Assembly (NCBI RefSeq): GCF_000091665.1 | Contig: NC_000909.1 | Location: 563,581 to 595,580, forward strand | Length of the DNA stretch: 32,000 nucleotides | From: Methanocaldococcus jannaschii DSM 2661 | GTDB taxonomy: Archaea; AGJL01; Methanococci; Methanococcales; Methanocaldococcaceae | Reading direction: 5' to 3' | Part shown: positions 26,596 to 29,030 of the stretch, one piece after another | Position numbering within the stretch: position 1 is the first letter of the stretch | Layout: every line of letters begins with the position of its first letter | Translations under genes and position numbers: made by a program | Notes under the pieces: generated by a model | What the model saw: only the letters and a program-made list of their open reading frames with translations | What the model was told of the DNA's origin: nothing | The model's database searches: none

Positions 26596-27621
26596 TTATT
26601 TTAAATAATTACAAACCCTTTCAAACATTAAATCAGTTGGGTCTTCTAACTCAATAACACCCATTCTTTTTCCTAAATTATCTTCAACATAGTTTATTAT
26701 TTCCTTGATATCATTTGTATGAATCATCCTATCTTTTTCAATTAAATATTTATCAACTCCAAGTAACTCTTGAGGATAGCAAGATACCGTTGGAATGCCT
26801 AAGATAGCACTTTCCCTGTTCATCGTTCCTCCAGCACCAATCATGAAATCGGAATTATACAATAAAGAAAGAGCATCTATTGTCTCTTTTGGAACTATAG
26901 CATTAACCTCTCTATATATCTCTTTTTGATGTTCATCCCTTGGGAACACAACTATATTACAGTCAATTCTTTTTTGAAGCTTTTCAATAATTTTTGGTAG
27001 TATATCTTTATGTCCATTACAATAAGAAGAGTTTGGGCAAGGTCTCATAACTATTGTTGGATTATCATCACAAATTCCCAATTTTTTTAAAATTTCATTA
27101 TCTATTGGATAATAACCCTTTAGCCGTGAATTTACATTTGCCACTTCACAAGTTCCTTCAAAGCTTATAAAATTTCTTCCTCCAAATTCTTTCAGCTTAT
27201 TTTCATCTGTTGCTATAGGTTTAATAATCTCATCTGCCAATGGTAGAGTTAATTTATTTTGAGCTTCAGCGTGTTCATTATCTACAACAAAGATTACTGG
27301 AATGTTCAAACCAAAAGCTACCCTTGGCAACTCAACGGAGTGTTTTGCTATAGCTACTTTTGGCTTTACATTTGATATTAGTTCAGTTAATCCAATAACC
27401 CTCTCAGCGTAGAAAATTAACTTATCCTTCAACGTGTTTCCATGCTTTCCTATACACTTCCCTACAAAATTGTAAATTTCAACTAATTTAGCTAAATTCC
27501 CTGAATCTCTAAAAGTTAATAAATACTCAATCCCTTCTTTCTCAAATTTTTTTATCAATTGGCAGAAATAATGCACATGGGGGGCGTTTGTTAAATCAAT
27601 CCATACATCCAAGTTAATCAC
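26596..27621 (-). CDS. DUF354-family protein (GT-B / UDP-GlcNAc 2-epimerase-like fold, function unknown)
   Basis: The N-terminus (M)INLDVWIDLTNAPHVHYF resembles the conserved IWIDI.N.PHV.FF start I recall for DUF354. Start is GTG 27621 or TTG 27612 after GGTGAT. Confidence 0.6.
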   Translation of the reverse strand: MINLDVWIDLTNAPHVHYFCQLIKKFEKEGIEYLLTFRDSGNLAKLVEIYNFVGKCIGKHGNTLKDKLIFYAERVIGLTELISNVKPKVAIAKHSVELPRVAFGLNIPVIFVVDNEHAEAQNKLTLPLADEIIKPIATDENKLKEFGGRNFISFEGTCEVANVNSRLKGYYPIDNEILKKLGICDDNPTIVMRPCPNSSYCNGHKDILPKIIEKLQKRIDCNIVVFPRDEHQKEIYREVNAIVPKETIDALSLLYNSDFMIGAGGTMNRESAILGIPTVSCYPQELLGVDKYLIEKDRMIHTNDIKEIINYVEDNLGKRMGVIELEDPTDLMFERVCNYLK

Positions 27622-27625
27622 CCAT
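27588..27625. repeat. Direct repeat copy 1 (38 bp): SD plus first 11 codons of the DUF354-like gene
   Basis: TTGTTAAATCAATCCATACATCCAAGTTAATCACCCAT. It matches 27780-27817 at 37 of 38 positions, and the single difference is synonymous (GTA vs GTG). Confidence 0.95.
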
Positions 27626-27779
27626 TAAATATATTTAAGTGGGTTGAACGTAGAGTTCCCTCTGGGTATCGCACTATAGAGGGGATATAGCCCCTCTATT
27701 GGGACACACCTCCAAATAGAAAGTGGGGTTGCCAAAGGCAATCCCGCTCTGGATATCCCAATAGGGCGAAGCCCTATGG
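27626..27779. ncRNA. Candidate structured RNA or small inserted element (GC-rich, multi-hairpin); strand undetermined
   Basis: ~48% G+C by hand count (~52% over 27641-27779). Hairpins: 27676-27699 (9-bp stem ATAGAGGGG/CCCCTCTAT), 27726-27745 (GGGTTGCC/GGCAA-CCC) and 27758-27779 (CC-ATAGGGC GAA GCCCTAT-GG). No cloverleaf and no C/D boxes. Confidence 0.45.
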
Positions 27780-27817
27780 TTGTTAAATCAATCCACACAT
27801 CCAAGTTAATCACCCAT
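27780..27817. repeat. Direct repeat copy 2 (38 bp), immediately downstream of moeA
   Basis: TTGTTAAATCAATCCACACATCCAAGTTAATCACCCAT. It is offset exactly 192 nt (64 codons) from copy 1. Confidence 0.95.
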
Positions 27818-27833
27818 CAATAATTATAAATAA

Positions 27834-29030
27834 TCATTTTAGCAAATACACATCTACAAGCTCTCCTTTTTCATAACCTTCAACATTTTCTGGAATTAAG
27901 ATATAGCCGTCACTTTTTATTAACGAGGAAATAACTCCACTTCCAGTAATTCTTATAGGTTCTACTTCTATATCCACCTTAACTCTAACAAAATCAACTC
28001 TACCAAGCTCAGAGGCCATATTTCTTTTTAAAGGTAAGGTAACTTTCTTCCTTTCTATAAAAAATCTTTGAATAAATAACTCAAATTGAACAGCTGAAGC
28101 TACAGGATAGCCAGACAGCATGAAGACTGGTTTATCATTAATTATTCCAAATCCAAATGGTTTTCCAGGTCTTATATTTACACCATGAACTATAACATCT
28201 CCCAATTCTCTGACAGTCTCAACAGTTATATCTCTCTCACTCACAGAAGTTCCTCCAGTTATTAATAAAGCGTCATTTTCACTCAAAGCTGTTTTAATAG
28301 CTTTCTTTAGTTTTTCTTTATCATCTTTAACAATATCATAAATTTTTGCATTAAACCCAAGATTTTTTACTAAACCATATAACATATATGAATTGGAATT
28401 TATAATTTTCCCATCTAATTTACTAATATCTTCCTCAATATCCCTAATTTCATCCAAATTGATGAGCTCATCTCCCGTAGATATTATACCAAAACTTAAA
28501 TCATAAACCTTAATTTTTTTAATTCCTAAAGATGCGAGCATATTTAGATGATAAGGATTAATAATCTCCCCCTTTTTCAAAACTACATCTCCCTTTTTAA
28601 CATCCTCCCCAATCCTTGAGACATTTTCGTTTGGATGAACAGTTTTATAAACTTCAACAAAATCATCAACTTCATTGCAAAACTCTTTCATAACAACAGC
28701 ATTGGCATTTTTTGGTAGTTTATCTCCAGTGAATATTTTTTTAGCTTCTCCATAAGTTATTTCATCTCCATCAGCAAGATTTAGTATTATTGGGTTTGTT
28801 TCAGAAGCTCCAAAAGTATCTTCCGCTATAACAGCATAACCATCCATCGCAGCCTTATTAAAATAAGGTAAATCAATTGGAGCTTTAATATCTTCAGCAG
28901 ATATCCTGTTTAAAGCTTCAACAATATCAACTTCTTTAACTTTTTTATTCTCATCCAAATACTCTGATAATTTTTCAAAAACAATCTTTTCAGCACTTTT
29001 TAAGGGCATTAAATTTTTTATAAGCTTCAT
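27834..29030 (-). CDS. moeA: Molybdopterin molybdenumtransferase MoeA
   Basis: MDGYAV, TGDELI, LITGGTSVSERD and SGYPVASAVQFELF motifs typical of MoeA/gephyrin E domain. Confidence 0.9.
   Translation of the reverse strand: MKLIKNLMPLKSAEKIVFEKLSEYLDENKKVKEVDIVEALNRISAEDIKAPIDLPYFNKAAMDGYAVIAEDTFGASETNPIILNLADGDEITYGEAKKIFTGDKLPKNANAVVMKEFCNEVDDFVEVYKTVHPNENVSRIGEDVKKGDVVLKKGEIINPYHLNMLASLGIKKIKVYDLSFGIISTGDELINLDEIRDIEEDISKLDGKIINSNSYMLYGLVKNLGFNAKIYDIVKDDKEKLKKAIKTALSENDALLITGGTSVSERDITVETVRELGDVIVHGVNIRPGKPFGFGIINDKPVFMLSGYPVASAVQFELFIQRFFIERKKVTLPLKRNMASELGRVDFVRVKVDIEVEPIRITGSGVISSLIKSDGYILIPENVEGYEKGELVDVYLLK

What the first reader, a model, noticed from the sequence alone, without database searches (positions are those of the whole stretch)
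27641..27779. Candidate novel structured RNA: a chain of GC-clamped hairpins
By hand count, G+C here is about 52%, a level that in AT-rich hyperthermophiles is typical of structural RNAs rather than proteins. Three strong local hairpins follow each other. Hairpin A (27676-27699) pairs ATAGAGGGG with CCCCTCTAT over 9 bp around a 6-nt loop. Hairpin B (27726-27745) pairs GGGTTGCC with GGCAA(T)CCC around an AAA loop. Hairpin C (27758-27779) is CC(A)ATAGGGC-GAA-GCCCTATGG. Weaker elements are GAAC/GTTC at 27646-27658 and TTGGG/TCCAA at 27699-27715. CCCTCT (27658-27663) can alternatively pair with AGAGGG (27679-27684). It is not a tRNA (no cloverleaf), it lacks C/D or H/ACA boxes, and it is too short for RNase P or SRP RNA. 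GC-content screens of this type of genome are known to have revealed orphan 'Hgc' RNAs. I cannot tell from memory whether this locus is one of them.
Basis: partly seen in the sequence, partly recalled or inferred. Interest (0 to 1): 0.7.

Follow-up and report, generated by a model that had tools for sequence, protein, structure and literature searches.

The report
Hairpin cassette inserted at gene start
The G+C-rich hairpin block in Methanocaldococcus jannaschii is a small non-coding insertion, made of two diverged copies of a two-hairpin module and bracketed by a 41-bp duplicate of the neighbouring gene's start, that is present in only some relatives; it probably makes or once made a small structured RNA, but this has not been shown.

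Summary
Window 27641-27779 is 52.5% G+C in a 30.4% window and is the most G+C-rich 100-nt stretch in 32 kb.

The context changes the reading. The window is M. jannaschii DSM 2661. The 151-nt block (27629-27779) lies between moeA (MJ0666) and MJ0665, inside a 41-bp direct repeat (39/41 identical) that duplicates the MJ0665 ribosome-binding site, start codon and about 9-10 codons.

Five related genomes or contigs have one copy of the 41-mer and no insert; three others have unrelated sequence at the junction. Two metagenomic Methanocaldococcus contigs carry a homologous but shorter insert (74 and 68 nt) at the same site with the same repeat. The M. jannaschii block is therefore two diverged tandem copies of a ~65-70-nt two-hairpin module, separated by a decayed piece of the repeat.

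All seven wobble pairs are G·U on the + strand. The first-hairpin block is 41/42 identical between lineages whose synonymous sites are 68% identical.

There is no Rfam, tRNA, plasmid, phage or viral match. Expression, strand and genome-wide copy number were not tested. Verdict: a real, lineage-variable hairpin cassette; the "novel structured RNA" reading is partly supported.

The parts
26596..27621 (-). MJ0665, a DUF354 protein. The ORF is 341 aa from GTG 27621. RefSeq uses the TTG at 27612 (338 aa), which has the Shine-Dalgarno-like GGTGAT at 27622-27617.
27588..27628 (-). Direct repeat, downstream copy on the gene strand (DR-down). This is the working Shine-Dalgarno sequence, start codon and first ~9-10 codons of MJ0665.
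27629..27702 (+). Module 1. It has an AT-rich leader (ATATATTT), a degenerate first hairpin (the weak GAAC/GTTC element at 27646-27658), a linker, and hairpin A (27676-27699).
   Evidence: A covariance model built without this copy finds it at 27634-27701 + (21.1 bits, E 0.0024). It aligns to the single-module homologues with score 40, reached by 0 of 2000 shuffles.
27703..27720 (+). Decayed remnant of the direct repeat between the two modules. CACACCTCCAA at 27705-27715 matches CACACATCCAA of the repeat.
   Evidence: 10/11 match; 21 of 2000 shuffles score as high; see also the alignment.
27721..27779 (+). Module 2: hairpin B (27722-27748, 12 bp with 2 G.U), a linker, and hairpin C (27761-27777).
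   Evidence: It aligns over its full length to L133 (score 41, 0 of 2000 shuffles). The model hit is 27718-27782, 78.4 bits (this copy was in the training set).
27780..27820 (-). Direct repeat, upstream copy on the gene strand (DR-up). It is a redundant duplicate of the MJ0665 Shine-Dalgarno sequence and start.
27625..27813 (-). A 62-aa ORF created by the duplication. It starts at the duplicated start and reads through the cassette. It is not conserved: the equivalent ORF is 36 aa in L131 and 9 aa in L133 by my reading.
   Evidence: no homologue in the protein collection; uORF lengths read.
27834..29030 (-). moeA (MJ0666), the upstream gene on the same strand. In relatives without the insert it abuts or overlaps the DUF354 gene.

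Best explanation
Shown. The block is a non-coding insertion cassette at the moeA/MJ0665 junction of M. jannaschii. Its building block is a ~65-70-nt module of two G+C-rich hairpins. M. jannaschii carries two diverged tandem modules separated by a decayed piece of the flanking repeat. The whole is bracketed by a 41-bp direct duplication of the MJ0665 ribosome-binding site and start, so the downstream copy keeps the gene intact. Related lineages have zero modules or one module at exactly this site. Inferred. (1) Copy number changes through recombination between the direct repeats. Unequal crossover would give the two-module array and, reciprocally, a precise empty site. Gene conversion or re-insertion would keep the outer repeats alike. 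(2) The module is, or recently was, used as a single strand of + polarity, antisense to the moeA-MJ0665 operon. Most likely this is a small structured RNA. In the single-module relatives its first hairpin is capped by a K-loop-like CUGA...GUGAAG motif with tandem G.A pairs, which would be an L7Ae-type site. In M. jannaschii that motif is lost in both modules and the stems are lengthened to perfect 9- and 12-bp helices. The window's copy is therefore a derived and possibly degenerate form. How the module first entered the site is unknown.
For: Insertion and duplication: the 41-nt repeat is 39/41 identical. Empty sites with a single 41-mer occur in M. fervens, FS406-22 and contigs L130, L132 and L134 (alignment). 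Homologous inserts at the same site: L131 288-361 (74 nt) and L133 320-387 (68 nt), each between its own repeat copies. Tandem-module structure: both halves of the window block align significantly to the single module (scores 34-41, 0 of 2000 shuffles). The repeat remnant matches 10/11. A model built from module 2, L131 and L133 finds module 1 independently (E 0.0024) and nothing else in 75 kb. Strand: over 61 helix pairs the + strand has 53 Watson-Crick, 7 G.U and 1 mismatch, while the - strand has 53, 0 and 8. The + strand folds better in every homologue, and alone keeps the first hairpin in all homologues at 85 C. Constraint: the leader plus first-hairpin block is 41/42 identical between L131 and L133, whereas four-fold sites of the adjacent gene are 68% identical (p about 1.6e-6); the rest of the module is about 62% identical by my reading. 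Pairing is kept in 97.8% of cells, with a C-G / U.G / U-A series at one pair. Gain or loss by repeat recombination: carriers are not monophyletic. L131 is sister to the empty FS406-22, and L133 is sister to the empty L130 and L132. The flanks follow the species tree right up to the repeat. Repeat copies within a genome share lineage-specific states.
Against: No transcript evidence of any kind is available. I found no BRE/TATA placed so that a + strand RNA would include the 5' arm of the first hairpin. The palindromic TAAATATA (27626-27633), judged against the M. jannaschii consensus TWTATATA with a 19-24 bp spacer (PMC2602779), would start transcription inside that hairpin's loop. Three sequences give no statistical covariation: 307 of 500 shuffles do as well. 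The double-sided changes that lengthen hairpins A and B could come from DNA-level template switching that perfects quasi-palindromes, rather than from selection on RNA. The K-loop-like motif was noticed after the fact and is absent from the window's own copies. Genome-wide copy number could not be tested.
Confidence: 0.45

Rival explanations
1. It is selfish or neutral DNA. The block would be the remnant, or the whole, of a small integrative or MITE-like element that landed at the 5' end of MJ0665. The 41-bp repeat would be its attachment-site or target duplication. The hairpins would be DNA palindromes kept or perfected by replication template switching, or single-strand recombination sites, with no RNA function.
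For: Distribution is patchy and the repeat length is att-like. The same junction holds other insertions: a 112-nt element with perfect 16-nt terminal inverted repeats in strain 10A, and 371 nt of AT-rich DNA in M. vulcanius. The long perfect stems in M. jannaschii arose by multi-nucleotide changes on both arms. No promoter was found. The upstream repeat copy is decaying in L133, at 34/42.
Against: The block has kept about 50% G+C in a 30% genome over a divergence of 32-38% at synonymous sites. The first-hairpin block is 41/42 conserved against 68% neutral identity. All 7 wobble pairs lie on one strand. There are no terminal inverted repeats and no integrase. Neither the element nor the 41-mer matches anything in PLSDB, INPHARED or IMG/VR. 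A 41-bp duplication fits no transposon family I know of.
Confidence: 0.3
2. It is a cis-acting element of the moeA-MJ0665 operon mRNA on the - strand. The intercistronic hairpins would stabilise, terminate or process the transcript, or set how MJ0665 translation is coupled. The duplicated start gives an upstream ORF that ends 3-12 nt before the real start in M. jannaschii and 1 nt before it in L131.
For: The genes abut or overlap in relatives, so co-transcription through the cassette is the default. The - strand also folds well at 37 C (-56.6 kcal/mol, z -3.8). The conserved block sits directly upstream of the working Shine-Dalgarno sequence.
Against: On the - strand all wobble positions become A.C mismatches. 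L133's - strand has essentially no stable fold (-8.9 kcal/mol at 37 C, 0 at 85 C). At 85 C the M. jannaschii - strand is no better than shuffles (z -0.9). The upstream ORF is not conserved; it stops after 9 codons in L133 (read).
Confidence: 0.15
3. It is one of the G+C-island RNAs of M. jannaschii already published and perhaps Northern-verified (Klein et al. 2002 Hgc RNAs, Schattner 2002 candidates, or the presumptive ncRNA promoters of Li et al. 2008). This is a statement about prior knowledge. It is compatible with the best explanation.
For: It is the strongest G+C island in 32 kb, so any composition screen should have flagged it. [quoted passage not shown] PMC3432209 counts 5 (Klein) and 18 (Schattner) predicted sRNAs in M. 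jannaschii.
Against: No Rfam 15 family, and so no Hgc family it holds, matches even at E<=10. The source papers and their tables are not held. No paper in the library mentions MJ0665 or MJ0666.
Confidence: 0.3

Closest known systems
Orphan G+C-rich small RNAs of AT-rich hyperthermophiles (Hgc RNAs of Klein, Misulovin & Eddy 2002; G+C-island ncRNA candidates of Li, Reich & Olsen 2008, PMC2602779)
   Same: It is an intergenic island of about 50% G+C in a roughly 30% genome, built from stable hairpins, with no homologue outside close relatives.
   Different: No Rfam 15 family, and so no Hgc family it holds, matches. This island is an insertion bracketed by a 41-bp duplicate of a gene start. It varies between 0, 1 and 2 modules among relatives. 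It has no adjacent consensus BRE/TATA, whereas the Li et al. candidates were defined by one.
Small hairpin-forming intergenic insertion elements of bacteria (REP/BIME, pneumococcal BOX, Neisseria Correia elements); comparison from my own knowledge
   Same: They are short, non-coding and G+C-rich relative to their surroundings. They consist of modular hairpin units whose number varies between strains. They sit between genes of an operon and are co-transcribed.
   Different: Those are multi-copy families with short or no target duplications. Here only one locus is known, the duplication is 41 bp, and the host is an archaeon. Copy number elsewhere in the genome is untested.
Mobility of archaeal small-RNA genes (C/D box sRNA gene duplication, circular permutation / re-insertion and MITE-like sRNA copies in Pyrobaculum, PMC6009581)
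   Same: A small structured-RNA-like module appears at gene ends and is gained or lost between close relatives. A K-turn-type motif is present in the single-module homologues.
   Different: There are no terminal C and D boxes and no guide architecture. No flanking gene-start duplication came up in the passages of that paper I searched.
Site-specific integrative elements of archaea that duplicate a 40-60-bp attachment site overlapping a gene end (SSV-type, pNOB8-type and pT26-2-type integrases; from my own knowledge)
   Same: The direct repeat is of att-like length and contains a gene terminus, so the target gene stays intact. Presence or absence at one fixed site varies among relatives.
   Different: The cargo is only 68-151 nt, with no integrase or any gene. 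No plasmid or virus carries the 41-mer or the module. The usual targets are tRNA genes.

Membership tests
Rfam families, including any Hgc, SRP, RNase P, C/D, H/ACA and Moco-riboswitch models the library holds | Covariance-model score at or above the family gathering threshold | tested here: not met
   There are 0 hits in the whole window at gathering threshold. At E<=10 in 27500-27900 only three chance-level hits appear, to miRNA, scaRNA and lncRNA models at 11-15 bits against thresholds of 50-75. Homologues L131 and L133 give only E 0.3-0.8 noise.
tRNA / tmRNA | Cloverleaf detectable by ARAGORN | tested here: not met
   0 genes in the window.
Archaeal C/D box sRNA | Terminal box C (RUGAUGA) and box D (CUGA) forming a K-turn, with internal D'/C' boxes and ~12-nt guides | tested here: not met
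   Reading searches shows no terminal C or D box on either strand. A D'-like CUGA and a C'-like GUGAAG cap the first hairpin only in L131 and L133, and their spacing to any further CUGA is 7 nt and not conserved.
Archaeal H/ACA sRNA | Hairpin with a pseudouridylation pocket, a K-turn or K-loop in the upper stem, and an ACA box 3' of the hairpin | tested here: not met
   The hairpins are continuous 7-12-bp stems without a pocket. No conserved ACA follows them. No Rfam H/ACA hit.
K-turn / K-loop (L7Ae-binding) motif | Tandem sheared G.A / A.G pairs next to a helix, with a 3-nt bulge or a loop on the other side | tested here: not met
   The window's own modules lack it: module 1 reads UUGA...AGAGUU and module 2 has an AAA triloop. 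By inspection only, it is present in L131 and L133 (C-U-G-A [ACGUAGU] G-A-A-G on the + strand). Binding is not testable here.
MITE (miniature inverted-repeat transposable element) | Terminal inverted repeats | tested here: not met
   The ends ATATATTTAAGTGGG... and ...GCCCTATGG are not inverted copies of each other. No terminal inverted-repeat pair is reported.
MITE (miniature inverted-repeat transposable element) | Short (2-10 bp) target-site duplication and many dispersed copies | tested here: inconclusive
   The duplication is 41 bp, which is atypical. There is no second copy in the 32-kb window or in 9 other Methanocaldococcus loci. A genome-wide count was not possible.
Integrated element with att-site duplication (tyrosine-recombinase type) | Direct repeats of ~40-60 bp (attL/attR) that reconstitute the target gene | tested here: met
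   The 41-nt repeat is 39/41 identical and contains the Shine-Dalgarno sequence, start and ~9-10 codons of MJ0665. The downstream copy is continuous with the gene.
Integrated element with att-site duplication (tyrosine-recombinase type) | Integrase gene or other cargo, or a free element carrying the matching attP | tested here: not met
   Only 151 nt lie between the repeats and they hold no conserved ORF. No match to the element or the 41-mer in plasmids, phages or IMG/VR.
IS200/IS605-derived hairpin elements (PATE / REP-like) | Subterminal imperfect hairpins used as single-stranded DNA, insertion without target duplication, multiple copies | tested here: not met
   Strand-specific subterminal hairpins are present, but the insert is flanked by a 41-bp duplication. 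Copy number is untested.

The most novel reading that the evidence does not exclude
The module is a site-specific, non-autonomous mobile small-RNA cassette. It would be a K-loop-bearing structured RNA gene that enters and leaves the translation-start region of one host gene by recombination through a ~41-bp copy of that region, possibly via a small circular intermediate. It would amplify in tandem and keep its flanking repeats homogenised. That would be a previously undescribed way for archaeal RNA genes to move and to sit antisense to an operon junction.
Probability: 0.12. Interest if true: 0.75.

Novelty: new variant of a known kind. Interest (0 to 1): 0.45.

Why it matters
Orphan G+C-rich islands in hyperthermophile genomes are usually taken at face value as stand-alone RNA genes. 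Here, comparison with relatives shows that one such island is an insertion cassette with a module structure, a long duplication of a gene start, and presence/absence and copy-number variation between close lineages. One part of it is under clear constraint on one strand. If the + strand RNA is real, this is a small, tractable case of how a structured RNA gene is gained, duplicated, remodelled and lost in archaea, and of an antisense RNA sitting on an operon junction. If it is not real, the locus is a warning that G+C content and hairpin stability alone over-call RNA genes in these genomes.

Tried and rejected
Searches for known RNA families:
- Rfam at gathering threshold and at permissive thresholds, on the window and on the homologues, found nothing.
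- ARAGORN found nothing.
- A Moco riboswitch, suggested by the neighbouring moeA, is rejected because Rfam gave no hit.

Protein coding:
- The 62-aa ORF has no homologue.
- Its counterparts in L131 and L133 are 36 aa and 9 aa.

Searches for a source element or further copies:
- blastn of the block, the single module and the 41-mer against plasmids and phages gave only chance hits.
- Four IMG/VR pattern scans gave only generic terminator-like hairpins or nothing.
- Genome collection: a peptide-pattern scan of the translated block matched 600 stretches, none confirmed.
- The 18-mer CCCTCTATTGGGACACAC gave two chance hits in unrelated bacteria and did not return M. jannaschii itself.
- Metagenome 20-mer from hairpin B: two chance hairpins.
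- In hindsight both DNA patterns lay in M. jannaschii-specific parts, so these scans say little about the family.

Other mechanisms:
- A BHB intron is rejected. The flanks are direct repeats, not inverted ones, and the 41-mer has no internal helix-bulge-helix by inspection.
- A CRISPR-type off-target integration is rejected. The repeat is 41 nt, against about 30 nt for the host repeat as I recall it, and the inserts are homologous to each other.
- Tandem Repeats Finder does not see the two modules because they are too diverged.
- The bacterial promoter/terminator scan is irrelevant to archaea and empty.

Literature:
- Klein 2002 and Schattner 2002 are not held.
- The supplement of Li 2008 is not held.
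- No paper mentions MJ0665 or MJ0666.

Full report
**1. The observation**

Hairpin A pairs ATAGAGGGG (27676-84) with CCCCTCTAT (27691-99) across a 6-nt loop. Hairpin B extends to 12 bp (27722-27748, AAA loop, two G.U pairs). Hairpin C has a 7-bp core (27761-27777, GAA loop).

- G+C of 27641-27779 is 52.5%, against 30.4% for the window.
- It is the highest 100-nt G+C peak in the 32 kb.
- The + strand of 27629-27779 folds at -63.3 kcal/mol, z = -4.57, and no shuffle out of 200 does as well.
- The - strand folds at -56.6 kcal/mol, z = -3.77.
- Rfam gives nothing at gathering threshold in the whole window and only noise at E<=10 locally.
- ARAGORN finds no tRNA.

**2.

The block is bracketed by a 41-nt direct repeat, 27588-27628 and 27780-27820, 39/41 identical. 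This is the only strong local direct repeat in the window.

The window is M. jannaschii DSM 2661. The ORF at 26596-27621 (-) is MJ0665, a DUF354 protein. The ORF at 27834-29030 (-) is MoeA.

Read on the gene strand, the repeat contains the Shine-Dalgarno-like GGTGAT, the start codon and the first ~9-10 codons of MJ0665. The start is TTG 27612 in RefSeq's 338-aa model and GTG 27621 in the 341-aa ORF. The copy next to the gene is functional. The copy next to moeA opens a 62-aa ORF that runs through the cassette and has no homologue.

**3. Empty sites**

In the following relatives moeA and the DUF354 gene abut, with a gap of 0-19 nt and a single copy of the 41-mer:
- M. fervens (L007) and strain FS406-22 (L008)
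- metagenomic contigs L130, L132 and L134

The alignment shows the M. jannaschii sequence as these sites plus 192 nt, namely the 151-nt block and one repeat copy.

Other relatives have unrelated sequence at the junction:
- 67 nt in M. bathoardescens
- 371 AT-rich nt in M. vulcanius
- a 112-nt element with perfect 16-nt terminal inverted repeats in strain 10A

**4. Homologous inserts**

Two metagenomic Methanocaldococcus contigs carry a related but shorter insert at the same position, between their own copies of the repeat.

| Contig | Source | Upstream repeat | Insert | Downstream repeat |
|---|---|---|---|---|
| L131 | JGI 3300041958 | 247-287 | 288-361 (74 nt) | 362-402 |
| L133 | ENA ERZ3624295 | 279-319 | 320-387 (68 nt) | 388-428 |

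On the window's + strand each reads as follows: an AT-rich leader, a first hairpin (AGUGGGGYU / AGCCCCGCU, 9 bp, 11-nt loop), a linker, a second hairpin (AUAGGG.. / ..CUAU), then GG.

**5. The window block is two modules**

The single module aligns significantly to both halves of the M. jannaschii block.

| Comparison | Score | Shuffles reaching it (of 2000) |
|---|---|---|
| L131 or L133 vs the 27629-27703 half | 40 | 0 |
| L131 vs the 27713-27779 half | 34 | 0 |
| L133 vs the 27713-27779 half (full length) | 41 | 0 |
| The two halves against each other | 20 | 15 |

Between the halves, CACACCTCCAA (27705-15) matches CACACATCCAA of the repeat 10/11, reached by 21 of 2000 shuffles.

A covariance model built only from module 2, L131 and L133 finds module 1 at 27634-27701 on the + strand, with 21.1 bits and E 0.0024. 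It finds no other copy in the window or in nine other Methanocaldococcus loci.

The architecture is therefore repeat, module 1, repeat remnant, module 2, repeat.
- Hairpin A is the second hairpin of module 1.
- Hairpins B and C are the two hairpins of module 2.

**6. Signs of constraint and of strand**

Over the seven well-formed helices in the three loci (61 pairs):

| Strand | Watson-Crick | G.U | Mismatch |
|---|---|---|---|
| + | 53 | 7 | 1 |
| - | 53 | 0 | 8 |

By my count the seven wobbles represent about five independent events, all on the + side. That is a one-sided probability of about 0.03 under strand symmetry (inference).

Every homologue folds better on the + strand, for example L133 at -20.7 against -8.9 kcal/mol. 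At 85 C, near the growth temperature as I recall it, the first hairpin persists in all homologues only on the + strand.

The leader plus first-hairpin block is 41/42 identical between L131 and L133. Four-fold degenerate sites of the adjacent gene are 68% identical between the same two contigs (binomial p about 1.6e-6). The linker and second hairpin are only about 62% identical by my reading.

On the three-sequence alignment, 97.8% of pair cells are standard pairs, against 36-60% for slid controls. One pair runs C-G / U.G / U-A. With n = 3 the covariation measures are matched by 307 of 500 shuffles. Structure conservation is therefore visible, but covariation is not statistically established.

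**7. A possible protein site, absent in the window**

In L131 and L133 the first hairpin is capped by 5'-CUGA-[ACGUAGU]-GAAG-3'. That gives tandem G.A / A.G pairs stacked on the stem, in the arrangement of the D'/C' K-loop of archaeal C/D RNAs that L7Ae binds. This is my reading, plus established knowledge of K-turns.

The motif exists only on the + strand and lies in the most conserved block. In M. jannaschii it is lost in both modules: module 1 has UUGA...AGAGUU, and module 2 has a 12-bp stem with an AAA triloop. The window's copy is thus a derived form. Its long perfect stems arose by multi-nucleotide changes on both arms. RNA-level selection could produce that, and so could DNA-level template switching.

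**8. History of the insertion**

Carriers are not a clade in the DUF354 tree. L131 is closest to the empty FS406-22 (92.9%). L133 is closest to the empty L130 and L132 (93%). The flanks follow the same relationships right up to the repeat.

Within-genome repeat identity is 39/41 in M. jannaschii, 36/41 in L131 and 34/42 in L133. Both M. jannaschii copies share a spacer state (AAC) seen in no other genome. Both L131 copies are closest to the single FS406-22 copy.

Yet the M. jannaschii cassette is internally old, with strongly diverged modules and a decayed middle repeat. The simplest reconciliation is recombination between the repeats. Unequal crossover would give a two-module array and, reciprocally, a precise empty site. 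Gene conversion in a polyploid host, or re-insertion of an excised repeat-plus-module circle, would keep the outer repeats alike. This is inference; none of it was observed.

**9. Expression**

I could not place a promoter. The M. jannaschii consensus is BRE MRCCGAAAAG, TATA TWTATATA and a 19-24 bp spacer to a TGC initiator (PMC2602779).

The only good TATA match is the palindromic TAAATATA at 27626-33 (+) and 27637-30 (-). It has no purine-rich BRE on either side. It would start transcription inside the loop of module 1's first hairpin on the + strand, or at the MJ0665 start codon on the - strand.

The - strand is almost certainly transcribed as part of the moeA-MJ0665 operon, because the genes abut in relatives. 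A + strand RNA is suggested only by the fold asymmetry and the K-loop-like motif.

**10. Origin and relatives elsewhere**

No match to the block, the single module or the 41-mer was found in PLSDB, INPHARED or IMG/VR.

They targeted M. jannaschii-specific sequence and returned only chance hits, and not even the M. jannaschii locus, which is therefore apparently masked or absent. Whether the module occurs elsewhere in Methanocaldococcus genomes is open.

**11. Prior knowledge**

Composition screens of this genome have been published (Klein 2002; Schattner 2002), and Li et al. 2008 listed ten presumptive ncRNA genes next to G+C islands without known homologues (PMC2602779; counts in PMC3432209).

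This island is strong enough to have been flagged, but the tables are not available here. No held paper names MJ0665 or MJ0666. No Rfam 15 family matches, so no Hgc family that library holds does either.

**12. Verdict**

The feature is real and exceptional for its genome. It is best described as a lineage-variable hairpin cassette: two tandem modules inside a 41-bp duplication of a gene start.

| Reading | Probability |
|---|---|
| Makes, or once made, a + strand structured RNA | about 0.45 |
| Selfish or neutral DNA | about 0.30 |
| - strand operon element | about 0.15 |

The closest analogues are the orphan G+C-rich RNAs of hyperthermophiles, bacterial modular hairpin repeats (REP, BOX, Correia), mobile archaeal sRNA genes (PMC6009581) and att-duplicating integrative elements. 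It fails a defining feature of each family that could be tested.

Noticed in passing
L011:2293-2404 (Methanocaldococcus sp. 10A, CP187542.1): A different 112-nt insertion sits at the same moeA/DUF354 junction. It has perfect 16-nt terminal inverted repeats (ATAGTTGTGTGCAAAA ... TTTTGCACACAACTAT) and an internal GC hairpin (GAATGCCTTCC...GGAAGGCATTC). It overlaps the moeA stop, so MoeA is 403 aa there rather than 398. It looks like a MITE.
   Followed up: partly
L009:2130-2500 (M. vulcanius M7) and L010:2434-2500 (M. bathoardescens): The same junction holds 371 nt of very AT-rich sequence in M. vulcanius and 67 unrelated nt in M. bathoardescens. The moeA/DUF354 junction therefore seems to tolerate or attract insertions.
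   Followed up: no
L007:3851-5009 (M. fervens AG86): Downstream of the DUF354 gene, M. fervens has an N6_N4 methyltransferase and an MjaI-type restriction endonuclease gene. M. jannaschii and FS406-22 have the Zn-ribbon (Top1-type) gene and a TPP enzyme gene at that position. This is a local synteny break caused by a restriction-modification cassette.
   Followed up: no
L130 and L131 (both JGI metagenome 3300041958): An empty-site allele and an occupied allele of the junction occur in the same sample, on contigs from two different Methanocaldococcus lineages (DUF354 genes 86.9% identical).
   Followed up: partly
window 27766-27772: Hairpin C contains GCGAAGC. As I recall, this is the heptamer known to form an unusually stable DNA mini-hairpin. 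L133 has the related GCGTAG. This may bear on a single-stranded-DNA role.
   Followed up: no
window 27612-27624: The start of MJ0665 is ambiguous. The mechanical ORF starts at GTG 27621 (341 aa). RefSeq's 338-aa model starts at TTG 27612, which is the one preceded at proper distance by GGTGAT. An out-of-frame ATG lies at 27624-27622.
   Followed up: partly
Genome-contig collection: Neither scan returned the M. jannaschii locus itself, although the 18-mer searched is an exact substring of the window. The source genome or this stretch appears to be masked or absent, so negative results from that collection are weaker than they look.
   Followed up: no
window 27511-27526 (+ strand, inside the MJ0665 coding region): AAAAG-TTAATAAA is a fair match to the M. 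jannaschii BRE-TATA consensus on the strand antisense to MJ0665. It is the reverse complement of the conserved codons for EYLLTFR and is present whether or not the cassette is. It could drive an antisense transcript that runs into the cassette.
   Followed up: no
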